Notes: generated from the letters alone by a model not told the origin. 64,000 nucleotides of DNA from Chlamydiota bacterium (GCA_016178055.1 JACOUC010000036.1:9-64008), one strand, 5' to 3'; positions 15,901 to 33,327 are shown, counted from the stretch's first letter. Numbers and translations are program-made.

Positions 15901-18900
15901 AAATTCTTCCTTCATGAGAATATTGGCTTGAATCTCTTTAAAAGGCTTACCGTAATGCTGTTCCAGCTCTTTTTGAAAAAGTTTAATAAAAAGGTCCCGC
16001 GTCTTAGGATCAGCCGTTTTTAATCGATCCGCCAGAAATTCACGTAAGGGTCTTTCCTCACACCAGCCCAGGGCACCAAAACCAAAGAATGCAGATATGG
16101 GAGACGTCATTGCGAGGAGCGAGAGCTCCGAAGCAATCCCAGCTTTGCGCAAAACAGAGATGGCTTCGTCGGCTTCACCTCCCTGCAATGACGGCCAAAC
16201 ATAGCTTCCATCCAAAGACGGAAGAGGCAAAAGATTCACCAACCCTAAAGCCAAATTAATTTTGACTCCCCAAATAAGCGGGCCCATTAAAAATCCAAAA
16301 GGCCCAACGGCATTAGCGGCAAGGGCCCCTACCGCAAAGACCACGGCCAAAATTAAATTACTCACCGGCCCCGCAAGCGCTACTTTCTTCATCGAAGATT
16401 CTGAGAGCCGCCAAGAAGAAATAGGAACGGGCTTTAACCACCCGATCGGAATCCCGATCAAAAGCGTAGACGCTAAAAAAGAAATCGTCCCCCAAAAATC
16501 TAAATGCCTCCAAAACCTGAGCAACGTCAATCGCCCCGCCTCCTCAGCCGTCCGATCCCCCAACCTCGCCGCCAGCCATCCATGGGCATATTCATGAAGA
16601 ATCGCGGAGAAGAGAATAATTGCTATCAATGGAACAGCACTTCCTAAAAGGCCAGGGTTGGCCACAAATACAGCGGCAAAAGGAATGCACAAAAAGACAT
16701 AAATATTCTTGACTTGCCCCGGACTTGATTCTATGATTTTTCTCATGAATGAGAAAAAGACTCCAAAACCTATTCCTACTCCAGAAGAAGCCCAGCGATA
16801 CAACTCCGTTATTATTGAGGAGATGAGAAGCCAATTTAAGGTTTTTGGCGAAGGATTAACCGGTTTTAGAAAAGAAACGAATGCACGATTTGACAGACTC
16901 GAAGAAGTCGTTATGGATACGCGTGAACGTGTCTCTAGGGTAGAGAATAGACTCACCAAAGTTGAAGAGAGCAACGCTCGCATTGAATCTGACATTCGCC
17001 TCATCAAAAACCAAATCAAAGTCAAGGTGGATTTAGAAGAATTTAAAGTACTTGAAAATCGGCTTGTGATCGTTGAAAAAAGACTGGCTGCCCTTCCCAT
17101 CTCCGCTTGATTAGCGCTATTTGAAACTCTTCTGGAACCCCCTATACTGCGTATCAAGCCATCCACATCCCCCACATATCCTCCTAATTCCAAGGCTCTT
17201 CTAAGGTAAATTTCTATTGAATGAGCCGTTTGTGCGTGACTCAGGAAAAATCGCATCTGATCTTGCGTGAGCGTAGTCACGCGTTCAAGCCAAAGAAGAG
17301 GGTTTTTCTGCAATTCATCGGAAACTTCCGAACGATTTTCCTTTCCCGCTTTCCTCTCTATTTCTCGAATAACCCCTTCTAAATCTCTCGCCACCTCCTC
17401 CCAATTTTCTAAATTAAGTTCTCGGGCCAAAACCTCTTGATCCCTTTGCCATTGATCAAATTGGAGAGCCGTAAGCCCCGCAGCAAAAGCAGCCTCTTCT
17501 CCCAACGAGCGTATTTCCTCAAGAAAATGAAGCCTCGCGATTTTCTGAAGGGTCGGAAGTGAGGCTTCTTTTAAAGCATCAGGAGCGCCCGAAATAAATC
17601 CAAATTGCTCTTTCATCTTCCTAAAATAGGCGCTGCGATCGTCATGACCCGTCATACGAGGGGCAATGACCCAATAACCGATCTTGGCCTCTTTCAATTT
17701 CTTCGTGATCCCCTCCGTATGAAACCCACCCACCACAAGCGCTGCACAGGGAAGTTTCTTTTCCTGAATTAATTTAAGAGATTTTTCGAACATGATTTTG
17801 TCTCGTTTTAGAACTTGAGTGTAGAATTTTTGGGAGAGGTTAAAGATTTCTCCAAAATCAGGAGATTCATAGTCTATTGCTTCCTTTTTAGCTAATTCGC
17901 CAAGTTGAATTAGAAAATCTCCGATAAAGTCGTTCGGGCCTGCTTGGCTCGAGGCTCGAGGATAATACTTTGCTCGAGGCTCGAAGCTCGAGGCTCGAAG
18001 TAAATGCTTCTCCAGTTTTTGCTTTTGCCTCGAGCCTCGAGCTTCGAGCCGTTTTATGTCTTCCCTACTTCCTTCCATCGCAATCACACGCCTGAGTAGG
18101 TCATAGTCTTTTTCTAACGCCAGCAGCTCTTTCGCCTGAGGCGTTGTCGCCAAATTTTCAACGAGTTCTCCTTCGAGGTTTTTAATTTCTTCATCCAACT
18201 TCTCCCAAGAGATTTGTTTTAGGAGAGACATTTGTTGAATAAGGAGTTGAAGATTGGGATATGGAGCTGATTTCTCGACAGGCTCGAAACGTTTATTAAT
18301 TCTGTTATTGGAGTGCTTCTCGACTGCGCCTCTCGCTCCACTATCGTTTCTCGACGCGTTTCGACTAATGTCGAAACTTGCTTGAAAACTAAATTTATTG
18401 TTCGAGCGTAGTCGAGAACCTTCCTTCGCGTCCTCTACCTCCTCCTGGCCCCTCCTTGTGGTTTGCGCCGTGTTAGGCTCCAACCACTTCCTCGTCCACC
18501 CGCTACGGCGGGTACCCGGACTTGGTCGCAAGGAAGGGAGATTATTTCCCTCTAGCTTCGAGCCTCGAGCCTCGAGCATTCCTAAGTACTTGCTTAGGAA
18601 CAAATAATGCTCTTCATCACTGGTTCTGCCCAGCCGATGCTCTAAGATATTTCTCAAAACTTCATTGAGTTCTTCTTTTGGAAGCTTCTTCTCTAGTTCA
18701 GATAAAAATAAGAGGTATTCAGACTCAATTTTTGATGCGTCCGTTTTCTTTTCGAGTGCTTGGAGTCGAAGGTAGAAATCAAGCTGGGGGTAGTTTTGGC
18801 TCGAAGCTCGAGGCTCAAGGCTCGAGGAGGAAAGAGGAAGAGATTTATTTTCTACATTTTCAGTTTTTCCTTTTGTCTTTGCTTTTGCCTCGAGCTTCGA

Positions 18901-19887
18901 GCCTCGAGCCTTCAGCCCGTTTTCCGCTTCTAGCTGCTTTACATATTCCCCCATCTCTATCTTATGCTCCCTATACTTCTCCCTTTCTTCAATGAGCTCT
19001 ATCAATTCCTTTGGATAAATTTTTTCGGACAAACCCCTAAATATATCATCTAAACCCTGCCAGACATGCTCTTGTAAATTCCTCTCCTTCAAAAGCTCCC
19101 CCATCGCCCTTAAATTCTCGACATAATCAGACAGTTCTTCCACCCCCACTCCCTTAACCTTTTTTGGCCCTTCCTTAACGAGAAAAGTCTCCACCCCATC
19201 GAGTTCATTTTTATCCAAGAATTTTTTGAGAAGAGAAGCTAAAACCCTCTGATCTGGGAAAGACCAGAAAAAGGACATGTCCATTTCACCATCAGCAGCC
19301 TCACAAAATATATGAAATGGTTTAAAATTCTCAGATACGGCTCTAACTTTGAGATTGTTTTGGCTCGAAGCTCGCCCGCCTCGCCTGACTCGTTCGTCAG
19401 ACGAGTCGCCGCCTTTGGCGAGCCTCGCCCTTTGGCGGGAGGTGGGAGGCTCAAGGCTCGAGGTAAATACTTCTGCTTTCTTTGCTTTTGCCTCGAGCTT
19501 CCAGCTTCGAGCCTCGAGCCCGTTTTTTTCTTCGAGCTTCGAGCCTCGAGCCTCTAGCTGCTTTTGTAAAATTTTCAACATCCTCTGAATATTCTCTTGC
19601 GCCTGAGAATTACAATGAATATCTTCAATAATGAAGAGATGAGGTGCTCCGGGGACATAGAATTGATCGGTCACTTCCCCTATTTCATGGGGAATACGCA
19701 TCTCCTCCAAAACTGAACTTAAATCGAGGGATTTGCGATCCACAGGATTAAACTCATTTACAGAAGTGACTGCTTTCAAATGAGTTGCGAATTGAGTATT
19801 CTGGCCAACAGAATAAGAAATGTCATAAAAGAGGAAGGAAAAACAAACGCACAAACTAATCAATGAACGCATAAACCTGACAAGCAT
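3931..19887 (-). CDS. Giant multidomain membrane protein, ORF1 (Tiki/ChaN-like N-domain, M50 protease-like, ClpB-like AAA+ pair, GT4 glycosyltransferase, large unknown regions)
   Basis: The open frame is continuous from 3931 to 19998 and begins with a GTG. The likely true start is ATG 19887 ([18 protein letters not shown], a signal-peptide-like N-terminus), preceded by GAGAGGGG. Domain motifs are listed as separate features. Confidence 0.65.
   Translation of the reverse strand: [5318 protein letters not shown]
6600..8199 (-). other. GT4-family (GT-B) glycosyltransferase module in ORF1, preceded by a transmembrane hairpin
   Basis: [36 protein letters not shown] is the E-x7-E GT4 signature, at about 6724-6810. 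Upstream are [10 protein letters not shown] and two transmembrane helices. An internal Met (MAGIVGQ) lies at 8199. Confidence 0.65.
8162..8190 (+). promoter_or_regulatory. Sigma70-like promoter for the nested coiled-coil gene: TTGACT, 17 bp spacer, TACGAT, 7 nt, then ATG (leaderless-like)
   Basis: TTGACT at 8162-8167 and TACGAT at 8185-8190, with the ATG at 8198. The architecture is identical to 16709-16737. Confidence 0.45.
8198..8695 (+). CDS. Coiled-coil protein (paralog of 16745..17110), nested antisense within ORF1
   Basis: 166 aa, E/K/R-rich heptad-like sequence with tandem 11-aa units (VDKIETRLEK). Its N-terminus matches the paralog (QFKVFGEGLxGxR), and the differences between the two copies are enriched for plus-frame synonymous changes (GGC/GGA, GGT/GGA, AGA/CGT, ACG/ACA). 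It has its own -35/-10 promoter. Confidence 0.5.
   Translation: MEENKSENDSVMKSSHVAVILEDLRGQFKVFGEGLSGLREKTEEGFARIDKKFDRIENELANFRVRVRGVEDGNARIETKVDKIETRLEKVETKVDKIEIRLGKIETRLEKGEIKVEKISESNVRIEADLRIIKNLVKVKVDLEEYKILEDRVALLESKFAALAR
8848..8926. repeat. Family A palindromic element, full hairpin, in frame inside ORF1
   Basis: gctcgaagctcgaggctcaaagctcgagg, then loop taaatacttcttcggttctttgcttttc, then cctcgagcttcgagcctccagc. It translates as [32 protein letters not shown]. Confidence 0.75.
12450..14623 (-). other. ClpB/ClpA-like double AAA+ chaperone module in ORF1
   Basis: AAA-1 has Walker A [12 protein letters not shown] (about 14265-14300) and Walker B [8 protein letters not shown]. AAA-2 has Walker A [19 protein letters not shown] (about 13261-13293) and [10 protein letters not shown], with a ClpB-type C-terminal [13 protein letters not shown]. 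An internal Met (MINGRSS) and a transmembrane helix lie at 14623. Confidence 0.7.
14665..14853 (+). CDS. Small protein, putative VapB-like antitoxin partner of the downstream PIN gene (nested antisense in ORF1)
   Basis: 62 aa. A strong Shine-Dalgarno AAGGAGG lies 7 nt upstream of the ATG. It ends 4 nt before the PIN ORF. I recognised no antitoxin fold from the sequence itself. Confidence 0.35.
   Translation: MSAKLQELTELMGELEPKSLSRRSRNVAKALLGSCRGLITPRGKSSTRWIRQERSSLHSKVR
14858..15325 (+). CDS. PIN-domain (VapC-like) protein nested antisense in ORF1
   Basis: 155 aa. It starts LILDTDVIVNWL (first PIN acidic residue) and ends ...DPFDAILLACAMSSEEAILVSRDK (C-terminal PIN acidic cluster). Confidence 0.55.
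   Translation: MPSLPTLILDTDVIVNWLSEELETGTGRELWKAPFDIISKAEEGRSSVLICLTTLLELRFLLRRKKRLSDASIRSIINRMFQIISVNVPDKTELLRANHLQSLHPLDPFDAILLACAMSSEEAILVSRDKPLLRIASEFLEALNPEDALAKISKS
16100..16746 (-). other. M50 (site-2 protease) metallopeptidase-like module in ORF1
   Basis: HEYAHG (HExxH) lies in a transmembrane helix at about 16580-16597, and [10 protein letters not shown] (the LDG motif) lies downstream. The module begins at an internal Met, MRKII, at 16746. Confidence 0.6.
16709..16737 (+). promoter_or_regulatory. Sigma70-like promoter for the nested coiled-coil gene: TTGACT, 17 bp spacer, TATGAT, 7 nt, then ATG
   Basis: TTGACT at 16709-16714 and TATGAT at 16732-16737, with the ATG at 16745. The spacing is the same as at 8162-8190. 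Confidence 0.45.
16745..17110 (+). CDS. Coiled-coil protein (paralog of 8198..8695), nested antisense within ORF1
   Basis: 121 aa from ATG 16745 (the ORF track begins at TTG 16709). The block QFKVFGEGLTGFRKETNARFDRLEE is shared with the other copy. The ATG overlaps the minus-strand Met of the M50 module in a CATG palindrome. Confidence 0.5.
   Translation: MNEKKTPKPIPTPEEAQRYNSVIIEEMRSQFKVFGEGLTGFRKETNARFDRLEEVVMDTRERVSRVENRLTKVEESNARIESDIRLIKNQIKVKVDLEEFKVLENRLVIVEKRLAALPISA
17945..18050. repeat. Family A palindromic element, full, in frame in ORF1
   Basis: ggctcgaggctcgagg...ctcgaggctcgaagctcgaggctcgaag taaatgcttc...tttgcttttg cctcgagcctcgagcttcgagcc. Confidence 0.75.
18315..18420. repeat. 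Family C compound palindrome in ORF1 (TCTCGACTGCGC / GTTCGAGCGTAGTCGAGAAC arms with an inner gtttcgac/gtcgaaac hairpin)
   Basis: The GTTCGAGCGCAGTCGAGAAC motif recurs at 20103-20122 (intergenic MITE-like element) and at 54661-54680 (in ORF2). Confidence 0.55.
18554..18577. repeat. Family A element, single arm, in frame in ORF1
   Basis: agcttcgagcctcgagcctcgagc. It encodes [10 protein letters not shown]. Confidence 0.6.
18798..18910. repeat. Family A palindromic element, full, in frame in ORF1
   Basis: ggctcgaagctcgaggctcaaggctcgagg ... ttttgcttttgcctcgagcttcgagcctcgagcc. Confidence 0.75.
19362..19562. repeat. Family A compound palindromic element, in frame in ORF1, with an inner gactcgttcgtcagacgagtc palindrome
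   Basis: About 200 bp. Both arms are present, with a loop taaatacttctgctttctttgcttttg typical of the family. Confidence 0.7.
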
Positions 19888-20084
19888 GACAACCCCTCTC
19901 GATCTTGAAAAAATCAATAATGACTGCAAGCTTACATAAGTAAAGACACTTTGGGGACTAGAAATGTAAAAATAAAAATTTAGAAATTTCCATCTCACAA
20001 TTGATAAAGGAAGGTTTCTTATAGAATAACCAGCTATTCCTTCAAGCCCTTACATAATGATTTCCTCTACTTTATGGAACTGTT

Positions 20085-22247: not shown

Positions 22248-24209
22248 ATGATCGCATTTCATAAAGAAATTCTAAAGAACTATGATCGGGCCTCTAAACG
22301 AGAATGGGTCGTCACCAATGGCCTGGGCGGTTACGCCTCTTCGACCATCTGTGGCGCCAATACTCGCCGATATCACGGCCTCCTGGTTGCAAGTATAGAG
22401 CCCCCCACCAACCGCATGGTCATTCTCTCTAAAGTAGAGGAAACCATTCACATCGATGGAAAATCCTATGATCTTTCTTGCAACAAATTTCCTGAAACCA
22501 TTCATCCGATGGGTCATCAACATTTAGAACTTTTTTCTTTTGAATTCTACCCCAAATTCATTTACTCCGTTGATGGGGTTCGACTCGAAAAAAATGTTTA
22601 TATGATTTTTGAAAAGAATGCGACAATTATTTTTTATCGCCTGCTTGAGAGTCCTAAACCGATTAAACTCAGTCTCATGAGTTTTGTGGCTTGTCGAAGA
22701 TTCCATGAACTCACCCATGAGAATCCTTTCTTTAATCCCAAAGTCGAATGTCAAGAGGGCCTACTCAGACTGAAGCCCTACAAAAATGCCCCGATGATTC
22801 ATTTCTTTTTTAGCCCTGCGCAATTTGCCGATAACCCATTATGGTATCAAAATTTTGAATATGAAAAGGAATACCGTCGAGGCCTGGATTATCGTGAAGA
22901 TTTATTTACCCCTGGCGACTTAACGTTTGACATCGCTCCGGGAGGCTCCTGTTTCCTGATTGTTTCAACCGACGAGCTTTCATCCTCAGATCTTCTTCAG
23001 GCAGAATTTAAAGAAACAGAACGAAAAAAACTGATTCTAAAAAATTGCAATAAAGACGATAAGCTTGCCTTTTCCCTCTTCTTGGCGGCAGATACTTTTC
23101 TTGTCCAAAGAGGAGAAAAAGGTTCTGCCTCTGTCATTGGGGGATATCACTGGTTTAGTGATTGGGGGCGTGACACCATGATCAGCCTTCCCGGACTTAC
23201 CTTAGCGACAGGTCGATTTGACCTTGCAAAAAGCATTCTCACCACCTATTCAAAATATTGTTCACAGGGAATGCTCCCGAACCGATTTCCTGATGAAGGA
23301 AAAGAGCCTGACTACAACACCGTCGATGCAACCCTGTGGTTTTTTAATGCGATCTACCAATATTTTCTTTATACCGGCGATGAAATTTTTATTCGCTCGA
23401 CGCTTTTTCCTGTTCTTAAAGATATGATTCACTGGCATGAACAGGGAACCCGCTATCAAATTCACGTGGAAGAGGACGGTCTTCTTTTTGCAGGAGAAAA
23501 AGGCAGCCAATTGACTTGGATGGATGCAAAAATTGGTGACAATGTCATCACTCCCCGTGTAGGGAAAGCCGTTGAAGTGAACGCCCTTTGGTATAACGCC
23601 CTCAAAATCATGGAATTTTTTTCCGATCGATTTGGTTTTCTCCCACTCAGAGACCATTATAGCTCAATGGCCGACCTGGCAAAAAAAAGTTTTAACCACC
23701 TCTTTTGGAATCCCGAACTCGAATGCCTCTATGATGTTATTCAAGAAAATCAGGGAGATCCGTCGATTCGCCCCAATCAAATTTTTTCAATCAGCCTTCC
23801 CTTCCCTATTCTTAAAACAGAGCACCATCGTCCCGTTTTAAAAATCATTGAACAAGAACTCCTCACCCCTTATGGGCTTCGAAGTCTCTCCCCTCAAAAT
23901 CCAAAATACACAGGAAAATATTCCGGTAACGCCATTGTCCGTGACAAATCTTATCATCAAGGAACCGTTTGGCCCTGGCTCTTGGGGCCCTATGTTACTT
24001 CTTTTTTAAAAGTCCATGGTCGTACGGGCCGCACCCTTGATAAAGTCAAAGAAATGCTTGAACCTTTTCGGGATCATCTTTATGAAAATGGCATTGGAAC
24101 CATCTCCGAACTCTTTGATGGAGACGCACCCCATGAGCCCAATGGATGCATTTCTCAGGCCTGGAGTGTTGCAGAAATTTTGAGAGTCGTTGTGGAAGAA
24201 CTGAAATAA
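22248..24209 (+). CDS. Glycogen debranching enzyme (amylo-alpha-1,6-glucosidase, archaeal/bacterial GDE type)
   Basis: 653 aa. N-terminal GDE_N-like segment (VVTNGLGGYASSTICGANTRRYHGLLVA) and a C-terminal (alpha/alpha)6 glucosidase domain (GYHWFSDWGRDTMISLPGL...QAWSVAE). Confidence 0.7.
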   Translation: MIAFHKEILKNYDRASKREWVVTNGLGGYASSTICGANTRRYHGLLVASIEPPTNRMVILSKVEETIHIDGKSYDLSCNKFPETIHPMGHQHLELFSFEFYPKFIYSVDGVRLEKNVYMIFEKNATIIFYRLLESPKPIKLSLMSFVACRRFHELTHENPFFNPKVECQEGLLRLKPYKNAPMIHFFFSPAQFADNPLWYQNFEYEKEYRRGLDYREDLFTPGDLTFDIAPGGSCFLIVSTDELSSSDLLQAEFKETERKKLILKNCNKDDKLAFSLFLAADTFLVQRGEKGSASVIGGYHWFSDWGRDTMISLPGLTLATGRFDLAKSILTTYSKYCSQGMLPNRFPDEGKEPDYNTVDATLWFFNAIYQYFLYTGDEIFIRSTLFPVLKDMIHWHEQGTRYQIHVEEDGLLFAGEKGSQLTWMDAKIGDNVITPRVGKAVEVNALWYNALKIMEFFSDRFGFLPLRDHYSSMADLAKKSFNHLFWNPELECLYDVIQENQGDPSIRPNQIFSISLPFPILKTEHHRPVLKIIEQELLTPYGLRSLSPQNPKYTGKYSGNAIVRDKSYHQGTVWPWLLGPYVTSFLKVHGRTGRTLDKVKEMLEPFRDHLYENGIGTISELFDGDAPHEPNGCISQAWSVAEILRVVVEELK

Positions 24210-24213
24210 AGCC

Positions 24214-24246
24214 TATTTCGAATCTCGGATTTCGAATTTCGAATTG
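24214..24246. repeat. Left inverted tandem-repeat array (ATTTCGA/ATTTCGG units) flanking the four-helix-bundle gene
   Basis: tcgaatctcggatttcgaatttcgaattg. Its reverse complement is found at 24617-24650 (aatccgagattcgaaatccgaaatccgaaatc). Confidence 0.6.
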
Positions 24247-24255
24247 AAAAACAAA

Positions 24256-24618
24256 ATGAATTCTCAAGAGTTAAAAACGAGGACTAAACTGTTTGGACTT
24301 AAAATCATTCTTTTGGTTGAAAAATTGCCACGTTCAAAAACATTGGATATTATAAATCGTCAACTTCTACGCTCTGCAACATCCATCGGGGCAAATTATA
24401 GAGCTGCATGTCGTGCAAGATCCAAAGCGGATTTTGTGTCAAAAATTGGCATTGTCGAAGAAGAATCCGATGAATCAGTTTATTGGCTTGAATTGCTTAT
24501 AGAAACTAAGCTGGTTACTGATACCCAAATACATGTCTTGCTTAAAGAAGCAAACGAGTTAACAGCGATCTTTACCGCAACAGGAAGAACTACAAAAGAA
24601 AAACAGAAAAATGAATAA
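24256..24618 (+). CDS. Four-helix-bundle protein (23S rRNA intervening-sequence-type, bAvd-like)
   Basis: The segment ELKTRTKLFGLKIILLVEKLPRSKTLDIINRQLLRSATSIGANYRAACRARSKADFVSKIGIVEEESDESVYWLELL matches the family consensus. The gene is bracketed by inverted 7-mer repeat arrays. Confidence 0.65.
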   Translation: MNSQELKTRTKLFGLKIILLVEKLPRSKTLDIINRQLLRSATSIGANYRAACRARSKADFVSKIGIVEEESDESVYWLELLIETKLVTDTQIHVLLKEANELTAIFTATGRTTKEKQKNE

Positions 24619-26113
24619 ATCCGAGATTCGAAATCCGAAATCCGAAATCAAGAGGCTTTCCCTCGAATCCCTTGCCCAAAATGCCCTCGATGAGGCTATT
24701 TCGCTTGGAGCTTCCTACGCCGATGTCCGATTAATTGAATCCACCAGCCGAAATCTGGCCACCAAAAATGGAGTTCCAACCAGTTTGGATATTGAAGAAT
24801 CGCAAGGCCTAGGAATCAGGCTTCTTTATCATGGGGCCTGGGGATTTGCGGCTACGCATGATCTTTCAAATGAAAATGTATTACGGACAGCCTTTAAAGC
24901 CATTAAAATTGCTAAGGCCAGCGCCCTCACAAAAAAAGAGCCTGTTCGACTGGCCGAAGAAAAACCGATTCAAACAGAATGGTCCAGCCCCTTCTCCATC
25001 GATCCTTTTTCAGTTCCTATTGAAGAGCAACTTAATTTTTTATTACAAATCGATGAAGAAATCAGAAAAACCAAAGGGATCAGCATCTCTGAAACATCCA
25101 TGCATTTTCATAAAGAACACAAACTTTTTCTCTCGAGCGAAGGAAGCCGTATTCTCCAGCACTTTATCACCAGTGGAGCAGGGTTTGTTGCGATGGCTTT
25201 TCGAGATGGAGAATTGCAAAAACGTTCTTACCCTAATTCCTTTGGGGGACAATACCAAAAAAAGGGTTATGAGCTCATTCAAGAGCTAGAACTTCTCAAA
25301 AACGTTCCAAGAATCGCTGAAGAAACCGTTCGCCTTTTAGATGCCCCCAGTTGCCCTGTTGGAGAAAAGGATCTCATTTTAGACAGCTCTCAACTCGGTC
25401 TTCAAATCCATGAATCGGTTGGACACCCTATTGAGCTCGATCGAGTGCTCGGAAGTGAGGCCAATTACGCCGGAAAAAGTTTTCTTACGCTAGATCAATT
25501 AAAAACCCTTCAGTACGGATCCCCTATTGTTCACGTCGTCGCTGACGCTAGACTTTCACATGGTCCAGGTCTCGGCACGTTTGGCTATGATGATGAGGGC
25601 GTCCCTGCACAAGGAACGGATATTATTCGAGAGGGACAATTTGTAGGCTATCTCTCCTCTCGCGAGACCGCTCAAGATATCGGCGAAACACGCAGCAATG
25701 GAACCATGCGAGCTGAAAGCTGGAATCGGATTCCATTAATCCGCATGACCAATATTAGCCTCATGCCAAAAAATTGGGACTTTGAAAACTTAATTGCAGA
25801 CACAAAAGATGGAATTTATTTAGAAACAAATCGAAGCTGGAGCATTGATGATCGTAGGCTCAATTTTCAATTTGGAACTGAAATAGGATGGGAAATTAAA
25901 AATGGCAAGAAGATGAATAGGGTCAAAAACCCAATTTATTGGGGAATCACACCCGAATTCTGGAACGCCTGCGATGCCATTTGTAGTGATCGATATTGGA
26001 CGCTCTGGGGAACTCCCAATTGTGGCAAAGGACAACCCTGCCAAACCATGGGAACAGGTCACGGTTCTAGTCCAGCTAGGTTTCGCGGGATAAAGGTTGG
26101 AGCCAGTCATTGA
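24611..26113 (+). CDS. TldD-family metallopeptidase (TldD/PmbA superfamily)
   Basis: 500 aa with family-wide conservation, including HESVGHPIELDRV and GYDDEGVP. The N-terminal roughly 15 codons are encoded by the repeat array, so the true start may lie downstream. Confidence 0.7.
   Translation: MNKSEIRNPKSEIKRLSLESLAQNALDEAISLGASYADVRLIESTSRNLATKNGVPTSLDIEESQGLGIRLLYHGAWGFAATHDLSNENVLRTAFKAIKIAKASALTKKEPVRLAEEKPIQTEWSSPFSIDPFSVPIEEQLNFLLQIDEEIRKTKGISISETSMHFHKEHKLFLSSEGSRILQHFITSGAGFVAMAFRDGELQKRSYPNSFGGQYQKKGYELIQELELLKNVPRIAEETVRLLDAPSCPVGEKDLILDSSQLGLQIHESVGHPIELDRVLGSEANYAGKSFLTLDQLKTLQYGSPIVHVVADARLSHGPGLGTFGYDDEGVPAQGTDIIREGQFVGYLSSRETAQDIGETRSNGTMRAESWNRIPLIRMTNISLMPKNWDFENLIADTKDGIYLETNRSWSIDDRRLNFQFGTEIGWEIKNGKKMNRVKNPIYWGITPEFWNACDAICSDRYWTLWGTPNCGKGQPCQTMGTGHGSSPARFRGIKVGASH
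24617..24650. repeat. Right inverted tandem-repeat array flanking the four-helix-bundle gene
   Basis: See the left arm. This arm overlaps the annotated 5' end of the following TldD-like ORF. Confidence 0.6.
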
Positions 26114-26118
26114 CAAGA

Positions 26119-26178
26119 AGATCTATAAACGCGGATCTAACGCAGATCTATAAACGCAGATCAAATGCGGATCTATTT
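26119..26178. repeat. Left tandem-repeat array (about 11 bp AACGCGGATCT units) flanking the GxxExxY gene
   Basis: gatctataaacgcggatctaacgcagatctataaacgcagatcaaatgcggatctat. The inverted copy of the array lies at 26590-26648. Confidence 0.6.
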
Positions 26179-26655
26179 ATGGCTATAGAAGAAAAATTGC
26201 TGTATCAGGAGATTACATATGAGATTAGAGGAGCGTGTTTCTGGATATGGAAGGAATTCGCAAGTGCATTCAAAGAATCTATCATTGATAAAGCCCTCAC
26301 GGAGGAACTCAAGAAAAGGGGACTTAAGGTTGATAACCAAAAACACATAGACATTTTCTACAACAAAAAGAAAGTAGGAACTTATATTCCTGATAAAGTT
26401 ATCAATGATTGTGTGCTCGTTGAACTCAAAAGAAAACCTTTTTTACTACGGCAAGATAAAGAACAATTGTGGCATTATTTAAAAGGATCCGAATACAAAT
26501 TGGGTTTGCTAATCAACTTTGGAGAAAACGAACTAGAGTTTGAACGCATCGCCTACGACACTAAAAGAAGATCAAAGAGAGATCAGCGCCAGATCCGCGT
26601 TGCAGATCCGCGTTTGATCCGCGTAGTAGATCCGCGTTTGATCCGCGAACAATGA
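26179..26655 (+). CDS. GxxExxY protein (rRNA intervening-sequence-type, PD-(D/E)XK-like)
   Basis: The segment ITYEIRGACFWIWKEFASAFKESIIDKALTEELKKRGLKVDNQKHIDIFYNKKKVGTYIPDKVINDCVLVELKRKPFLLRQDKEQLWHYLKGSEYKLGLLINFGENELEFERI matches the GxxExxY family. The C-terminal tail is read from the repeat array. Confidence 0.6.
   Translation: MAIEEKLLYQEITYEIRGACFWIWKEFASAFKESIIDKALTEELKKRGLKVDNQKHIDIFYNKKKVGTYIPDKVINDCVLVELKRKPFLLRQDKEQLWHYLKGSEYKLGLLINFGENELEFERIAYDTKRRSKRDQRQIRVADPRLIRVVDPRLIREQ
26590..26648. repeat. Right inverted tandem-repeat array (AGATCCGCGTT units) flanking the GxxExxY gene
   Basis: cagatccgcgttgcagatccgcgtttgatccgcgtagtagatccgcgtttgatccgcg. This is the reverse complement of the array at 26119-26178. 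Confidence 0.6.
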
Positions 26656-27992
26656 AAATACTCAAAGAGAAATCTGAACAAGTTTTTGATACGGTTTTCA
26701 AAACCAGTCAGGCTGATGAAACTGAAATTCATTTTAACTGGATCACCCATGCCCTCACCCGGTTTGCCAATAACGAGATTCATCAAAATATGGGGGACGA
26801 AGATATTGAAGTTTCGATTCGTTCATCCTTTGGAAAAAAAACGGCTCGGGTCACTACGAATAAAACGGACATGGAATATCTCAAAAAAATGACCCAGTTG
26901 TCAAATCATCTGGCTTCCCTAACCCCTGAGGATCCCGACCTTCTTCCCATGCCAGGGCCCCAAACTTATCCCACAGTGAAACACGCTTATGAAAGAACAG
27001 ATCACATCAAAGCTGAAACCAGAGCTCGTGCGGTTTCAGTCCCCATCAAAATCGCACAACTAAAAAATCTGACTTGCGCAGGTATTTTCGCAAATGATCT
27101 CACACGTCATGCCCTTGGAAATTCCAAAGGACTTCGAGCCTATTCTGAGGAAACCTACGCTGTTTTTTCAACCACCATGATGGATAACAAACTAGGTTCA
27201 GGTTGGGCAAAAATGGGTCACCCCGATTCTACTCAAATCCCCGTCGAAACCTTGGCCTTACAGGCTTCTGAAAAAGCTATTTTAAGTAAGAATCCGATTG
27301 ATATTTCTGCAGGTGCTTACACCGTGATTCTCGAACCCTCTGCTGTGCTTGATCTCCTTGAATTCATGCTTCTTGATTTTGGAGGACTTTCCGTTTTAGA
27401 ACAAAGGAGTGCCTTTACAGAAAAATTGGATAAAAAAATTTTTGGTTCAAATATTACTTTTAAGGATGATATTTATCACCCCTTACAATCAGGAGCCCCC
27501 TTTGACGGTGAAGGATTTCCAAAAAAGCAAATTGAGTTGGTCCAAAATGGCATTTTAAAAAATTTGGTCTATAGCCAATCAAGCGCTCTTCGCTCTCAAA
27601 AAAAGCCTACAGGCCATGGATTTCCGGTTCCCAACGCTTATGGAGAAGCACCCATGAATTTCGTCATGAACGGGGGAAACTCCTCCCTCAAGCAAATGAT
27701 TGAAGGAACGGATCGAGGGCTTCTCATGACTCGTTTCTGGTATATCCGTGAAGTCGATCCCATGCAAAAAATCTTGACGGGAATGACAAGAGATGGGACT
27801 TTTTTAATTGAAAATGGCGTTTTAAAATCGGCCGTTAAAAATTTAAGATTCAACGAAAGCTTATTTCATCTATTAAATAATGTGGTTGAATTAGGACCCA
27901 GTGTCCGTGCCTCTGGAGAGGAAGGAATGGATATGATTGTCCCTGCTTTAAAAGCGAACGATTTTCACTTTACAAGCAGTACTAAATATTAA
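26652..27992 (+). CDS. PmbA/TldD-family metallopeptidase (second member of the pair)
   Basis: 446 aa with overall TldD/PmbA family similarity. It lacks the TldD HExxxH-type segment, which fits PmbA/TldE. Confidence 0.65.
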   Translation: MKILKEKSEQVFDTVFKTSQADETEIHFNWITHALTRFANNEIHQNMGDEDIEVSIRSSFGKKTARVTTNKTDMEYLKKMTQLSNHLASLTPEDPDLLPMPGPQTYPTVKHAYERTDHIKAETRARAVSVPIKIAQLKNLTCAGIFANDLTRHALGNSKGLRAYSEETYAVFSTTMMDNKLGSGWAKMGHPDSTQIPVETLALQASEKAILSKNPIDISAGAYTVILEPSAVLDLLEFMLLDFGGLSVLEQRSAFTEKLDKKIFGSNITFKDDIYHPLQSGAPFDGEGFPKKQIELVQNGILKNLVYSQSSALRSQKKPTGHGFPVPNAYGEAPMNFVMNGGNSSLKQMIEGTDRGLLMTRFWYIREVDPMQKILTGMTRDGTFLIENGVLKSAVKNLRFNESLFHLLNNVVELGPSVRASGEEGMDMIVPALKANDFHFTSSTKY

Positions 27993-28018
27993 TAAAATCC
28001 AAAATTTAAACATCAAAA

Positions 28019-28105
28019 ATCAAAATGACATCTCAAAATCCAAAATATATCTATGTCATAGATCATGAAATCATTTTAAATTTTAATATGTCATTTTGAT
28101 TTTTG
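28019..28105 (+). terminator. Possible long-loop hairpin downstream of the pmbA-like gene: 13 bp stem atcaaaatgacat / atgtcattttgat followed by TTTTTG
   Basis: Inverted 13-mers at about 28019-28031 and 28088-28100 in an AT-rich intergenic region. It could instead be an operator for the downstream mqn gene. Confidence 0.25.
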
Positions 28106-28221: not shown

Positions 28222-29085
28222 TTGGAATATCGAAAGGATACTATGTTTTACTCTAAAACTAAAATGTCTCTTAAACTCGCCCACAGTCCCGACGCCGATG
28301 ACGCATTCATGTTTTACGGTCTAGCCAAAGGTTTTGTTCCGTCTGAAGAAATTGAATTCACACATATCTTAAGCGATATCGAAACCCTTAATCAAAAAGC
28401 CAAAGAAGGGATTTATGAAGTCACCGCCCTTTCAGTCCATGCCTATCCTTATGTCAGCGACCGCTATAACATTTTAAAATCTGGCGCAAGCATTGGAGAT
28501 AACTATGGCCCCCTTTTAGTCGCTCGAGAAAAAATGAGCATTGAAGATCTTAAATGGAAAATCATTGCGGTTCCCGGAACCCTGACCACAGCTTATCTTG
28601 CTCTTAAACTTTTTGACCGAAATATTCGAACCAAAATCATTCCTTTCAATCAAATTATTGCAGCCGTGGAAAAAAAAGAAGTGGATGTTGGCCTGATCAT
28701 TCATGAAGGACAGCTTACATTTTCAAAAAATGGCCTTCATAAAATTTTAGATTTAGGAGTTTGGTGGAACGAAACAACCGGACTTCCTCTTCCCCTCGGA
28801 GTGAACGGAATTCGAAAAGATTTAGAACCCTCTCTTCAGAAAAAAATCGCCCGTCTTATTAAAGAAAGTATTTGTTATTCACTTTCCCATCGAAAAGAAG
28901 CGGTAGAGTACGCCCTTCAATTTGCTCGTGGAATGGATCCCGTCCTTGCGGATAAATTTATTGGCATGTATGTGAACGACGACACCATTGAAATGAGCGA
29001 GCAAAGCCAAAAAGCCATTGACGTCCTTCTCACTAGAGCCTTTGAGGAAGGATTAATCCTCCAAAAAAAATTAGAATATATCTAA
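28222..29085 (+). CDS. MqnA/MqnD-family menaquinone (futalosine pathway) biosynthesis protein
   Basis: 287 aa. Periplasmic-binding-protein-like fold of the VitK2_biosynth family (SLKLAHSPDADDAFMFYGL). The start could be 28222, 28243 or 28264. Confidence 0.6.
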   Translation: MEYRKDTMFYSKTKMSLKLAHSPDADDAFMFYGLAKGFVPSEEIEFTHILSDIETLNQKAKEGIYEVTALSVHAYPYVSDRYNILKSGASIGDNYGPLLVAREKMSIEDLKWKIIAVPGTLTTAYLALKLFDRNIRTKIIPFNQIIAAVEKKEVDVGLIIHEGQLTFSKNGLHKILDLGVWWNETTGLPLPLGVNGIRKDLEPSLQKKIARLIKESICYSLSHRKEAVEYALQFARGMDPVLADKFIGMYVNDDTIEMSEQSQKAIDVLLTRAFEEGLILQKKLEYI

Positions 29086-29237: not shown

Positions 29238-29345
29238 CAAGGTTATAGCCCGATAAAGGCAAACTATTCGAAAGAATGGGGCGCAAAGTTACAGATCCGA
29301 AGATTTTGAGTTCGTGAATCGTATAACATTCCACGAGTCAGGAAC
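29238..29345 (+). ncRNA. c-di-GMP-I (GEMM) riboswitch aptamer
   Basis: GGCAAACTATTCGAAAGAATGGGGCGCAAAG aligns closely with the Vc2 aptamer GGCAAACCAUUCGAAAGAGUGGGACGCAAAG, including the P1 GAAA tetraloop stem. It is followed by an intrinsic terminator and a pilin-like gene. A TTGACA is present at 29152-29157. Confidence 0.55.
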
Positions 29346-29403
29346 CCAGAGTCAGGGTGGCTGAACTGCCAAAGGCTGTGAACTTAGAGTTCCTTTGTGC
29401 ACA

Positions 29404-29435
29404 CCTGTTCTTCGAATAGAAGAACAGGTTTTTTT
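29404..29435 (+). terminator. Intrinsic terminator, likely the riboswitch expression platform
   Basis: Stem cctgttcttc/gaagaacagg with loop GAATA, then 7 Ts, immediately 5' of the pilin-like gene start region. Confidence 0.6.
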
Positions 29436-29456
29436 ATGGGCACGAAGAGGAACTCT

Positions 29457-30494
29457 ATGAAAAAGCGACGGGTCAAAGAATTTAGTCTGGGATTCAGTCT
29501 GATCGAAGTTGTTTCAGGCATTGCGATTATTCTAAGCATTGCAGGACTTCTCTTATCTGCAATTACATCCGCACGAGAAAAAGGACTCCAAGCAAAATGC
29601 ATCAGCAACCAGAAGAATTTAACCGCAGCGCTCATCATGTATGCTGTCGACCATGAAAATTTTCCGACAGAACTTGCCCAACTAAAATTATCCCCTCTCC
29701 AAAAAGAACGTCTATCTGGAGCATGGGTTTACGCTGATTCTTCCGTACCATTTTACTACGACTTACAATTTGGAGTCACTCAATGTCCTAAGGTACAAGG
29801 TAAAATTACAGATCCAACACCCACTTACTCCTATGGAATTAATGAATGGGTTCAAGGAAAAAGTCTAAGCCTTATTACGAACCCTTCCGAAACCATCGTC
29901 ACCTCTGACAGTCTTAACAAGGCCGCTATCTCAAGCGTCCAGGATGTCGACCCTCGCCACATGGGAGGAGCCTTTGCCGGCTTTGCGGACGGCCATGTAG
30001 AGTTAGTCAAATTCTCTCAACTTGAAACCTTTTTCACTTCAAGTGACACATCCTCTTCTTTAAACACGACTGACACTTTCCCCTCTCTTCCTGAAGGGGA
30101 TACAACAGGCGGCATTCTTTTTTACCGTGGCGGGGTCCCCACTGAGGAACCAGTAGCCGATGAGAATGAAGATGTTGAAGACAATGATGACTCTGCTGAA
30201 AGTGAAGACAGCCCTCCTTCAGACGAAGATGAAACAGAAGGGAAAAATTCTGAAGATGAAAATGAAGATGAAAATATTGAAGAACCCATCGAAGAAAATG
30301 ACGAAGAAGATCTTGAGGATCCTACTAAAGACGAAGAAGACCTTGAGGATACCGAAAATGATGATGATTCGGGAGAGGCTCACGATAATAACGGACATGG
30401 CAATAATGAGGACCACGATGACGAAGACAATCCTGGTCAAGGTAATGGAGATCACGGACATGACCACGACGAAGATACCGAGGACCTCCCATGA
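29457..30494 (+). CDS. Prepilin-type N-terminal cleavage/methylation domain plus DUF1559 pseudopilin-like protein with an acidic C-terminal tail
   Basis: N-terminus MKKRRVKEFSLGFSLIEVVSGIAIILSIAGLL (GF(S/T)LIE motif). The DUF1559 C-terminal motif is HMGGAFAGFADGHVELVKF. The D/E/H-rich tail is low-complexity. Confidence 0.6.
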   Translation: MKKRRVKEFSLGFSLIEVVSGIAIILSIAGLLLSAITSAREKGLQAKCISNQKNLTAALIMYAVDHENFPTELAQLKLSPLQKERLSGAWVYADSSVPFYYDLQFGVTQCPKVQGKITDPTPTYSYGINEWVQGKSLSLITNPSETIVTSDSLNKAAISSVQDVDPRHMGGAFAGFADGHVELVKFSQLETFFTSSDTSSSLNTTDTFPSLPEGDTTGGILFYRGGVPTEEPVADENEDVEDNDDSAESEDSPPSDEDETEGKNSEDENEDENIEEPIEENDEEDLEDPTKDEEDLEDTENDDDSGEAHDNNGHGNNEDHDDEDNPGQGNGDHGHDHDEDTEDLP

Positions 30495-33170: not shown

Positions 33171-33181
33171 CGATGAACAAC

Positions 33182-33262
33182 GAGTCCACGGTCAACGGTC
33201 TACAGTCCATAGAAAAAAATAATTCCTTTAAAGCTGTGAACCGTTGACTGTGGACTGTGGAC
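33182..33262. repeat. Intergenic imperfect palindrome (hairpin with about a 15 bp stem) between the transketolase subunit genes
   Basis: gtccacggtcaacggt ... accgttgactgtggac with extra flanking complementarity. Confidence 0.45.
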
Positions 33263-33327
33263 CATTTTCCTCTAGATGGGTGGACGAAAGTTGGATGAAT
33301 TAAAATTACAATGACTAGGAAACATCT

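What the first reader, a model, noticed from the sequence alone, without database searches (positions are those of the whole stretch)
24214..26648. Two rRNA-intervening-sequence-type genes (four-helix-bundle and GxxExxY), each bracketed by inverted tandem-repeat arrays, flanking the tldD/pmbA pair
The four-helix-bundle protein gene is flanked by inverted ATTTCG(A/G) arrays at 24214-24246 and 24617-24650. The GxxExxY gene is flanked by inverted AGATCCGCGTT arrays at 26119-26178 and 26590-26648. Both protein families are best known from intervening sequences excised from 23S rRNA by RNase III. Here the same cassette design, a small ORF inside a long inverted repeat, is inserted between protein-coding genes. 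The TldD N-terminus and the GxxExxY C-terminus are read from repeat DNA. This suggests a mobile or RNase III-processed cassette that modulates tldD/pmbA mRNA.
Basis: partly seen in the sequence, partly recalled or inferred. Interest (0 to 1): 0.6.

Follow-up and report, generated by a model that had tools for sequence, protein, structure and literature searches.

The report
Repeat-bounded small-gene cassettes flanking tldD
Two small genes, each boxed in by inverted arrays of short tandem repeats, were inserted exactly at the gene junctions on either side of tldD; more than 150 relatives in other bacteria have the same repeat-plus-gene layout, so they look like widespread selfish cassettes of the ribosomal-RNA "intervening sequence" type, not a tldD/pmbA regulator.

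Summary
A PF05635/TIGR02436 four-helix-bundle (4HB) gene (24256-24618) lies between inverted heptamer arrays. A TIGR04256 GxxExxY PD-(D/E)XK gene (26179-26655) lies between inverted 11-13-nt arrays. Each pair of arms is predicted to form a long stem (-38 and -67 kcal/mol).

Syntenic loci from related Chlamydiota show these are insertions. One relative has GDE-tldD-pmbA with both junctions empty, and another has tldD-pmbA empty. One has the orthologous GxxExxY cassette. One carries a different 4HB cassette at exactly the same tldD|pmbA junction.

The design is family-wide. About two thirds of 78 4HB loci carry period-7 arrays on a given side (about half on both), with the consensus unit G-R-A-W-T-K-Y, 4-5 units per array and a fixed orientation. 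GxxExxY genes carry CGCNGA iterons at 10-12-nt spacing, and 26 of 80 have sharp TAGAAGC...GCTTCTA ends. The arms match within an element but differ between elements, and they diverge together with the protein.

The Coxiella 23S IVS has the same heptamer, stem and 4HB layout, and RNase III cuts it. RNase III processing here is plausible but untested, and at cassette 1 it would cut tldD off from its only start codon. I found no support for an evolved role in regulating tldD/pmbA.

The parts
22248..24209 (+). Upstream host gene: glycogen debranching enzyme (GDE_N/GDE_C). Its stop lies 4 nt before the left array of cassette 1.
   Evidence: Pfam. The same gene precedes tldD in relatives L163 and L165.
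24214..24246 (+). Cassette 1, left arm: 4.4 tandem heptamers (ATTTCGA/ATCTCGG, which rotate to GGATTTC/GAATTTC and fit the family consensus G-R-A-W-T-K-Y).
24256..24618 (+). Cassette 1 gene: 120-aa four-helix-bundle protein (PF05635/TIGR02436; closest solved structure 2RLD).
   Evidence: The start at ATG 24256 agrees with all aligned homologues.
24617..24650 (+). Cassette 1, right arm: 4.7 tandem heptamers (AAATCCG), the reverse complement of the left arm. It is translated as TldD residues 3-13.
24611..26113 (+). tldD-like metalloprotease gene. Its start codon lies inside the cassette and overlaps the 4HB stop (ATGAATAA).
   Evidence: In relative L165 the N-terminus is MKIHRLTYEPLAQ, with the ATG overlapping the GDE stop.
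26119..26178 (+). Cassette 2, left arm: four units with the core (A)ACGC[GA]GATC (the last is ATGCGGATC) at 11-14-nt spacing. It ends 1 nt before the ORF's ATG.
26179..26655 (+). Cassette 2 gene: GxxExxY PD-(D/E)XK nuclease-fold protein, with a conserved core of about residues 1-130. D72, E82 and K84 are invariant in the family. The C-terminal tail is read from the right array. The stop overlaps the pmbA start (ATGA).
26580..26648 (+). Cassette 2, right arm: 5-6 units GATC[CA]GCG(T), the reverse complement of the left-arm units.
26652..27992 (+). pmbA-like gene, starting 3 nt after the right array.
27994..28105 (+). ORF-less hairpin built from heptamer arrays (AAAATCC/CAAAATC type and its complement), directly after the pmbA stop. 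It fills the third junction of the operon.
   Evidence: I5: 33 nt, 88%; -24.3 kcal/mol, z -5.9. It is 89% identical over 66 nt to a copy at a different junction in relative L162.

Best explanation
These are two unrelated members of a widespread class of small, repeat-bounded single-gene cassettes, the same kind of element as the ORF-carrying 23S rRNA intervening sequence. Here they were inserted independently at the stop|start junctions on either side of tldD, in an otherwise conserved GDE-tldD-pmbA-mqnA gene row.

Each cassette is a heritable unit made of one small gene plus its own family-specific inverted arrays:
- 4HB gene: 4-5 heptamers per side.
- GxxExxY nuclease-fold gene: 3-6 iterons per side at roughly one helical turn of spacing.

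Neither cassette has a recognisable promoter or terminator. Both point the same way as their neighbours and fill the junctions completely, so I infer they are transcribed as part of the host operon.

The host genes have adapted (the overlaps are shown; the coupling is inferred). tldD lost its own start and now initiates at a cassette ATG that overlaps the 4HB stop, then reads through the right array. The pmbA start overlaps the stop of the array-extended GxxExxY ORF. Both downstream genes are therefore probably translationally coupled to the cassette ORFs.

I infer that the arrays are the element's cis-acting ends and are recognised by the cassette's own protein. As a by-product they give a 30-45-bp stem in the transcript, which RNase III could cut as it does in rRNA IVSs. 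Any effect on tldD/pmbA expression is incidental, not the reason the cassettes exist.
For: Insertion and polymorphism (shown):
- L165 has GDE-TAATG-tldD and tldD-TAA|ATG-pmbA with no cassette. L164 has tldD-TGAaaaaATG-pmbA.
- L162 has the orthologous GxxExxY cassette, with 3 left units against 4 here.
- L163 has a different 4HB cassette (heptamer AGAGTTA) exactly between the tldD TGA and the pmbA ATG. It also has an ORF-less heptamer hairpin at GDE|tldD.

The cassette gene is functional: for the window and L162 GxxExxY pair, pN is 0.106 and pS 0.816, like the neighbouring genes. D72, E82 and K84 are invariant and the model has a PD-(D/E)XK fold.

Family-wide design, 4HB:
- In the 84 gene copies found in the 80 loci, spread across many phyla, the inverted-repeat score between a gene's own flanks has median 42.5, against 19 for flanks taken from different loci.
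- Of the 78 copies whose flanks carry no N runs, 49 have period-7/14 arrays upstream and 55 downstream, against 2/170 control segments.
- Arrays hold 4.3-4.4 units (IQR 3.7-4.7).
- 57/64 dominant units fit G-R-A-W-T-K-Y, although 28 different units occur.
- Array orientation relative to the ORF is canonical in 57 loci and inverted in 0.
- Protein similarity correlates with flank similarity (rho 0.22, 0/300 permutations).

Family-wide design, GxxExxY:
- The core CG[CT]NGA occurs at least 3 times upstream in 47/80 loci. Its complement occurs at least 3 times downstream in 54/80. Controls give 0/54. Spacing is 10-12 nt.
- 26/80 have termini TAGAAGC...GCTTCTA; in 25 of them the two ends lie 461-578 bp apart, and one pairing was spurious.
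- The variable base inside the core is the same on both arms in 42/58 loci (19 expected). Elements sharing a variant have more similar proteins (64.9% against 57.2%, 0/1000 permutations).

Other support:
- The architecture also occurs in a finished genome (Nostoc punctiforme pNPUN02).
- Cassettes share the neighbours' orientation in 71-82% of cases and lie about 60 nt from them.
- Promoter and terminator matches do not exceed chance.
- Stems are stable.
- The Coxiella IVS has the same heptamer, stem and 4HB layout and is cut by RNase III in vitro (PMC4990558).
Against: - No transposase, integrase or reverse transcriptase lies next to either cassette. The neighbours are GDE, TldD and PmbA.
- No target-site duplication is evident.
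- No second copy of either cassette exists in the 64-kb window, so current mobility is not shown.
- Binding of either protein to its arrays is inferred, not tested. A 120-aa helical bundle has no known catalytic activity.
- Co-divergence of arrays and protein could reflect shared descent alone.
- The co-orientation bias is only slightly above the general bacterial background (my estimate, not measured here).
- Transcription, hairpin formation and RNase III cleavage are all untested in this organism.
Confidence: 0.7

Rival explanations
1. One reading: an RNase III-processed regulatory cassette. Each stem would be a dedicated RNase III site that sets tldD and pmbA mRNA levels or uncouples them, and the cassettes would be kept for that purpose.
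For: Both stems are long and stable and exceed the roughly 20 bp that RNase III needs. The homologous Coxiella IVS stem is cut by RNase III within its heptamers. The cassettes are embedded in the operon with no spacer. The same two junctions carry array hairpins in three of five related genomes.
Against: - The cassettes are absent or different in close relatives that keep intact tldD and pmbA.
- Their nearest homologues lie in unrelated operons such as polysaccharide synthesis and ABC transporters.
- A cut in stem 1 would separate the tldD ATG (24611, on the loop side) from its coding sequence, and no alternative start exists before codon 58.
- Arm mismatches show no sense-strand G.U bias: 36 against 39 for 4HB and 31 against 44 for GxxExxY.
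- In GxxExxY elements with clear termini, the spacers between cores match between the two arms no better than they do between different elements (0.39 against 0.30).
Confidence: 0.12
2. The arrays are generic intergenic hairpins or simple-sequence repeats of this genome. The two small genes merely happen to lie inside two of them.
For: Heptamer arrays and array hairpins without ORFs are common in the window. Examples are 27994-28105, 33178-33265, and many GCCTCGA arrays inside the three giant ORFs. Relative L163 has an ORF-less heptamer hairpin at GDE|tldD.
Against: - The two unit types that flank the genes occur nowhere else in the window.
- The same unit classes flank homologous genes in more than 100 loci from unrelated phyla, with fixed orientation and constrained copy number, and they co-diverge with the protein.
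- The 11-12-nt GxxExxY unit is specific to that gene family.
Confidence: 0.05
3. Domesticated host modules. The arrays would be operators or iterons through which each small protein controls its own or its neighbours' expression, or the protein would provide a cellular function such as nucleic-acid surveillance. The units would no longer be mobile.
For: The GxxExxY cassette has been inherited vertically under purifying selection since the window and L162 lineages split. In this lineage the family termini TAGAAGC/GCTTCTA have degenerated. The iteron cores have element-specific variants. Both downstream host genes overlap the cassette ORFs.
Against: Neither protein matches PADLOC or PHROGs. No conserved partner gene or context was found. 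Presence and absence vary among close relatives.
Confidence: 0.13

Closest known systems
ORF-carrying 23S rRNA intervening sequences (Coxiella burnetii helix-45 IVS; also Leptospira and others)
   Same: A PF05635 four-helix-bundle ORF of about 120 aa sits in the loop of a stem of about 28 bp or more formed by terminal inverted repeats. Tandem heptamers lie directly upstream of the ORF, and their copy number varies between strains. Total size is about 430-480 nt. The function of the ORF is unknown (PMC4990558).
   Different: The cassettes here are not in rRNA. They lie between protein-coding genes in an mRNA operon (one search found no rRNA in the window). RNase III excision is unproven, and at cassette 1 it would destroy the tldD message. 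The heptamer differs (GGATTTC type against GACAGAT). The second cassette carries a PD-(D/E)XK gene with 11-13-nt units.
REP/REPIN elements and their RAYT genes (from my own knowledge: Nunvar 2010; Bertels and Rainey 2011)
   Same: A gene is flanked by inverted copies of a short hairpin-forming repeat, and ORF-less hairpins also occur at other intergenic sites. In this window the ORF-less arrays are of other unit types than the two that flank the genes. The CAAAATC type is a class that flanks 4HB genes in other genomes.
   Different: No HUH/Y1 transposase is present. The repeats are tandem arrays of 7-12-nt units, not a single palindrome. Each cassette copy has its own unit variant.
Transposons with multiple subterminal protein-binding repeats (Tn7 and Mu ends; the Tn7 TnsA is a PD-(D/E)XK nuclease; from my own knowledge) and MITEs
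   Same: Many GxxExxY elements have sharp conserved termini (TAGAAGC/GCTTCTA), several inverted subterminal repeats at regular spacing, a uniform length of roughly 460-580 bp, and presence/absence polymorphism at a precise site.
   Different: There is no recognisable transposase and no clear target-site duplication. A single 125-aa protein would be far smaller than any known autonomous transposase. Mobility has not been demonstrated.
Avd accessory proteins of diversity-generating retroelements
   Same: Same fold family (PF05635/cd16375): pentameric four-helix bundles that bind nucleic acid (PMC10053308; pentamer noted).
   Different: No reverse transcriptase or template/variable repeat lies next to the gene. 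The neighbours are GDE and TldD.
Abundant heptameric tandem repeats in bacteria (Xanthomonas GGGAATC, with 70-75 convergent pairs per genome; Nostoc GGGGA(C/T)T; Beggiatoaceae TAACTGA)
   Same: Intergenic period-7 arrays, often as inverted pairs able to form stem-loops, with no known function (PMC4692102; PMC4679880).
   Different: Those studies report no link to 4HB or GxxExxY genes. Here the arrays bracket a gene and track its family.

Membership tests
23S rRNA intervening sequence (IVS) | Located inside a 23S rRNA gene (helix 9, 25 or 45) | tested here: not met
   Rfam finds no rRNA in the window. The cassettes abut the GDE, tldD and pmbA coding sequences.
23S rRNA intervening sequence (IVS) | Terminal inverted repeats forming a long stem that encloses the element | tested here: met
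   stems of about 35 and 45 bp, -38.3 and -67.5 kcal/mol, z -6.7 and -8.9.
23S rRNA intervening sequence (IVS) | Excision from the transcript by RNase III | not testable with these tools
   [quoted passage not shown] Shown only for Coxiella and other rRNA IVSs.
23S rRNA intervening sequence (IVS) | Loop ORF of the PF05635 family, with tandem heptamers upstream (Coxiella type) | tested here: met
   Cassette 1. Coxiella description. Cassette 2 carries a different gene family.
PF05635 / TIGR02436 four-helix-bundle protein | Score above the curated cutoffs over the full length of the model | tested here: met
   PF05635 62.9 bits (cutoff 33.8). TIGR02436 82.9 bits (cutoff 24), model positions 3-108 of 109. 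PDB 2RLD, E 7.5e-19.
TIGR04256 GxxExxY / PF13366 PD-(D/E)XK | Score above the cutoffs, a conserved D...E-x-K catalytic motif, and the nuclease fold | tested here: met
   96.9 and 97.6 bits. D72, E82 and K84 are invariant in 30 homologues. The AF2 model (pLDDT 82.8) matches Cas4 SSO0001 and the Hjc resolvase. Nuclease activity itself was not tested.
Insertion sequence / MITE-type transposable element | Terminal inverted repeats | tested here: met
Insertion sequence / MITE-type transposable element | Target-site duplication | tested here: inconclusive
   No direct repeat at the window, L162 or L163 junctions. In the 25 validly paired elements with sharp termini (26 matched, one pairing spurious) the flanks differ. 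A TA duplication hidden in TAGAAGC...GCTTCTA cannot be excluded.
Insertion sequence / MITE-type transposable element | Encoded or trans-acting transposase of a known family | tested here: not met
   The only ORFs are a 4HB protein and a 125-130-aa PD-(D/E)XK core. There are no transposase domains.
Insertion sequence / MITE-type transposable element | Presence/absence polymorphism at a precise site among relatives | tested here: met
   (L165 and L164 are empty; L162 and L163 are occupied).
DGR accessory protein Avd | Adjacent reverse transcriptase and template/variable repeats | tested here: not met
   The neighbours are GDE and TldD. The only repeats are the flanking arrays.
REP/RAYT system | HUH Y1 transposase gene flanked by REP hairpins | tested here: not met
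   No such domain was found.

The most novel reading that the evidence does not exclude
The 4HB and GxxExxY cassettes would be a previously unrecognised class of minimal mobile elements, about 0.45-0.55 kb long. Each small protein would recognise its own iteron-like arrays: possibly one heptamer per subunit of a pentameric 4HB ring, and helical-turn-spaced cores for the PD-(D/E)XK nuclease. The rRNA 'intervening sequences' would simply be the copies that landed in rRNA helices. The ORF-less array hairpins would be their non-autonomous derivatives. That group would include the abundant heptamer repeats of cyanobacteria and Xanthomonas and the in-frame hairpins in this genome's giant genes.
Probability: 0.2. 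Interest if true: 0.8.

Novelty: new variant of a known kind. Interest (0 to 1): 0.6.

Why it matters
The function of the ORFs in rRNA intervening sequences has been unknown for about 30 years. So has the origin of the over-represented heptameric tandem repeats in bacterial genomes.

This locus and its relatives show three things:
- The IVS design (gene plus inverted tandem arrays) is a general, heritable unit found mostly outside rRNA.
- Each gene family has its own repeat unit, and each element has its own variant of it.
- The units come and go at exact gene junctions.

That makes the question directly testable. Do the proteins bind or cut their own arrays, and are the cassettes mobile?

The locus also shows a cost and its repair. 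A host gene (tldD) lost its start codon to the insertion and now borrows one from the cassette.

For annotation, it explains the odd repeat-encoded N- and C-terminal extensions that are common in these families and in their neighbours.

Tried and rejected
- Other copies in the window: phmmer of both proteins against all six-frame ORFs found none.
- Known RNA families: Rfam found nothing in the cassettes or in 11 related loci, and no rRNA. A grep for conserved 23S motifs in 171 sequences gave only one stray 11-mer.
- Defence or phage origin: no PADLOC or PHROGs hits. A viral-contig scan for GxxExxY relatives found nothing.
- RNA-specific selection on the stems: arm mismatches show no sense-strand G.U excess, so pairing at the RNA level cannot be told apart from DNA-level symmetry.
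- Target-site duplications: none seen.
- Own promoter or terminator: matches do not exceed shuffled expectation.
- Solved structure for GxxExxY by sequence: none. The fold search gave only generic PD-(D/E)XK relatives.
- Literature: six searches found no paper describing the repeat-flanked architecture of these two families outside rRNA. The statement that GxxExxY proteins are IVS-encoded could not be verified.
- A 4HB gene with GCCTCGA arrays, the unit in the giant ORFs: none among the 360 proteins fetched.
- The Mantel test for GxxExxY crashed. It was replaced by the core-variant test.
Full report
**1. What is there**

The window comes from a Chlamydiota metagenome-assembled genome (source names). 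An independent assembly of the same 5.9 kb is identical.

On the + strand the genes run in this order:
- glycogen debranching enzyme (GDE), 22248-24209
- a 120-aa four-helix-bundle (4HB) protein, 24256-24618
- a TldD-like protease, 24611-26113
- a GxxExxY PD-(D/E)XK protein, 26179-26655
- a PmbA-like protein, 26652-27992
- a MqnA-like protein, 28222-29085

The 4HB gene is bracketed by 4.4 and 4.7 tandem heptamers in inverted orientation, at 24214-24246 and 24617-24650. The arms are 31 nt and 87% complementary, with an 18-nt perfect core.

The GxxExxY gene is bracketed by 4 and 5-6 units of an 11-13-nt repeat whose core is ACGC[GA]GATC, at 26119-26178 and 26580-26648.

Folding each cassette as RNA closes the ORF inside one long stem. 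The arms alone give -38.3 and -67.5 kcal/mol (z -6.7 and -8.9).

No spacer is left anywhere in this gene row:
- The arrays begin 4-5 nt after the upstream stop codons.
- The 4HB stop overlaps the tldD start (ATGAATAA).
- The GxxExxY stop overlaps the pmbA start (ATGA).
- An ORF-less heptamer hairpin starts 1 nt after the pmbA stop.

**2. The cassettes are insertions**

I fetched syntenic loci from related Chlamydiota whose TldD is 77-83% identical and read the junctions.

| Locus | GDE/tldD junction | tldD/pmbA junction |
|---|---|---|
| L165 | empty (TAATG overlap) | empty (TAA then ATG) |
| L164 | different upstream genes | empty (TGAaaaaATG) |
| L162 | an AAA_14/DUF4143 gene | orthologous GxxExxY cassette (79% aa identity), 3 left units against 4 here |
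| L163 | ORF-less heptamer hairpin (GTTGTAA x4, aaaa, complement x4) | a different, Avd-like 4HB gene with AGAGTTA heptamers, exactly between the tldD TGA and the pmbA ATG |
| window | 4HB cassette | GxxExxY cassette |

The same zero-length junctions have therefore been occupied independently by different elements.

The orthologous GxxExxY pair is under purifying selection like its neighbours (pN 0.106, pS 0.816).

The nearest homologues of the window's 4HB protein (69-72% identity) sit inside unrelated operons, again flanked by heptamer arrays.

**3. Consequences for the host genes**

In L165 the TldD N-terminus is MKIHRLTYEPLAQ, and its ATG overlaps the GDE stop. In the window that ATG is gone. 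The only in-frame ATG/GTG/TTG before codon 58 is the ATG at 24611, inside the cassette.

As a result TldD begins MNKSEIRNPKSEIKRLSLESLAQ, and residues 3-13 are translated from the right array.

The GxxExxY ORF runs on through its right array. That tail has pLDDT below 50 and is absent from most homologues. The ORF stops on the pmbA start codon.

I infer that both downstream genes are now translationally coupled to the cassette ORFs. I also infer that ribosomes reading through the right arms help to open the stems.

An RNase III cut in stem 1 would fall between codons 3 and 15 of tldD and would leave the message without a start codon. That argues against efficient IVS-style excision at cassette 1. 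At cassette 2 a cut would simply separate the tldD and pmbA messages.

**4. The design is a property of the two gene families**

*4HB family.* I examined 80 genomic loci of 4HB homologues (50-63% identity) from Planctomycetota, Bacteroidota, Verrucomicrobiota, Acidobacteriota, Chloroflexota, Nitrospirota, cyanobacteria and others. They hold 84 gene copies; the array statistics below use the 78 whose flanks carry no N runs.
- The best inverted-repeat alignment between a gene's own flanks scores a median of 42.5, against 19 for flanks from different loci.
- Period-7/14 arrays occur upstream in 49/78 and downstream in 55/78, against 2/170 control segments.
- Arrays hold 4.3-4.4 units with a narrow spread.
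- 28 different dominant heptamers occur, but 57/64 fit G-R-A-W-T-K-Y. The window's unit (GGATTTC/GAATTTC) fits it.
- The orientation of the unit relative to the ORF is fixed: 57 canonical, 0 inverted.
- Protein similarity correlates with flank similarity (rho 0.22, 0/300 permutations).
- A finished genome shows the same layout: CAATTCG x5, gene, TTGCGAA x4 in Nostoc punctiforme pNPUN02.

*GxxExxY family.* I examined 80 metagenomic loci.
- The core CG[CT]NGA occurs at least 3 times upstream in 47 loci. Its complement occurs at least 3 times downstream in 54. Controls give 0/54. Unit spacing is 10-12 nt.
- 26 loci matched sharp termini TAGAAGC...GCTTCTA. In 25 of them the two ends lie 461-578 bp apart; one pairing was spurious.
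- Aligning the two arms from those termini separates two kinds of position. The variable base inside the core is element-specific and shared by both arms (0.80 identity within an element, 0.32 between elements).
- The 3-4-nt spacers between cores match between arms no better than they do between different elements (0.39 against 0.30).
- The dominant core variant agrees between arms in 42/58 loci (19 expected). Elements sharing a variant have more similar proteins (64.9% against 57.2%, 0/1000 permutations).

**5. What this says about mechanism**

Shown:
- Gene plus arrays is an oriented, heritable unit.
- Each gene family has its own repeat unit.
- Each element has its own variant of that unit.
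- The units are gained and lost at precise junctions.

Inferred:
- The arrays are cis-acting recognition sites, most simply for the cassette's own protein, and not merely a base-paired stem. A pure stem would need neither a family-specific unit, nor a conserved core with unpaired spacers, nor roughly helical-turn spacing, nor a fixed copy number.
- Arm mismatches show no excess of sense-strand G.U-compatible changes (36 against 39, and 31 against 44). So there is no RNA-specific signature.
- The cassettes lack detectable promoters and terminators. They are mostly co-oriented with their neighbours and lie about 60 nt from them. They must therefore be transcribed within host operons, and the stems will then exist in the RNA.

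The published Coxiella IVS has three to four GACAGAT heptamers upstream of the 4HB ORF, inside a 28-bp stem. RNase III cuts it at the first repeat, and copy number varies between strains (PMC4990558). That links this design directly to true IVSs and makes RNase III cleavage plausible here.

GxxExxY keeps an intact D...ExK motif and a PD-(D/E)XK fold nearest to Cas4 and Hjc. It is therefore probably an active nuclease, but its substrate is unknown. The 4HB protein is closest to 2RLD and belongs to the Avd fold family.

**6. Comparison with what is known**

The cassettes work like, and are built like, ORF-carrying rRNA IVSs. They fail the defining location test, because they are not in rRNA.

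They resemble REP/RAYT and transposons with subterminal repeats in layout. However, they lack any known transposase and show no target duplication.

Inverted heptamer arrays have been reported in Xanthomonas, Nostoc and Beggiatoaceae without a link to these genes.

In the searchable literature I found no description of the family-wide repeat-plus-gene architecture, or of the GxxExxY element termini. Absence from that corpus is not proof of novelty.

**7. Verdict**

RNase III processing is plausible but untested, and at cassette 1 it would be harmful. A dedicated role in tldD/pmbA regulation is not supported.

I rate this a new variant of a known kind, with interest 0.6. The most novel reading that remains open is that these are minimal mobile elements with cognate protein-iteron recognition, and that ORF-less array hairpins are their derivatives.

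Noticed in passing
window 3931-19998 (-), 35563-56601 (-), 56702-63754 (-): Three giant uninterrupted ORFs of 5355, 7012 and 2350 aa take up about 44 kb of the window. The first combines an M50 peptidase motif, a ClpB-like double AAA+ module and a GT4 glycosyltransferase.
   Followed up: partly
window 8854-8927, 17946-18050, 18549-18577, 18798-18917, 19490-19558, 36482-36515, 54883-55005, 55618-55649, 63036-63071, 63343-63403: Tandem heptamer arrays (GCCTCGA/GCTCGAG) lie inside the giant ORFs, many of them as inverted pairs forming hairpins with 13-60-nt loops. They stay in frame and are translated as LEARGSKLE...SSLEPRASS. This resembles the in-frame palindromic elements of Rickettsia (from memory). 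Whether relatives lack them was not checked.
   Followed up: partly
window 27994-28105: An ORF-less hairpin made of CAAAATC-type heptamers, a unit class that flanks 4HB genes in other genomes, sits directly after pmbA. A copy 89% identical over 66 nt lies at a different junction (AAA_14|tldD) in relative L162, so the hairpin itself appears to be dispersed.
   Followed up: partly
window 33178-33265: An intergenic ORF-less hairpin built from CCACGGT/CAACGGT heptamers and their complement, with a 33-nt loop (-40.1 kcal/mol, z -5.7). It lies between ORFs 32301-33170 and 33328-34287.
   Followed up: partly
window 29248-29373 (+): A c-di-GMP-I riboswitch (Rfam RF01051, 56.9 bits, E 3.9e-8) lies upstream of a 365-aa ORF (29397-30494) that has a hydrophobic N-terminus and a highly acidic tail.
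   Followed up: no
window 57706-57741 / 58076-58111: A 36-nt inverted repeat, 97% complementary and not made of tandem units, has arms 334 nt apart inside the third giant ORF (I1).
   Followed up: no
window 18280-18545: A G+C-rich stretch of about 260 nt lies between heptamer arrays inside the first giant ORF. It translates to low-complexity Arg/Ser/Pro-rich sequence and looks like inserted non-coding DNA kept in frame. It has no Rfam match.
   Followed up: no
L162 4374-6000; L163 10346-11533: In related Chlamydiota an AAA_14/DUF4143 ATPase gene occupies variable positions in the same gene row: between GDE and tldD in L162, and after mqnA in L163. In L162 it is preceded by a GTTGTGA/GGGGTGA heptamer array.
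   Followed up: no
L166 3880-4480; L029; L060; L072: Variants of the 4HB architecture occur. L166 has a complete hairpin on each side of the gene. L029 has four tandem 4HB copies. L060 and L072 each have two cassettes in one locus with different units, including an 8-nt unit (GCCGAAGT).
   Followed up: no
L172 (Fusobacteria plasmid pZRK30-1) 1240-1920: A distant GxxExxY homologue (38% identity) is flanked by direct, not inverted, copies of a roughly 45-nt unit (AATCAGTGAAAA..ATCAGA..TAATCCGTG.ACCT). So the arrangement of the arms differs between subfamilies.
   Followed up: no
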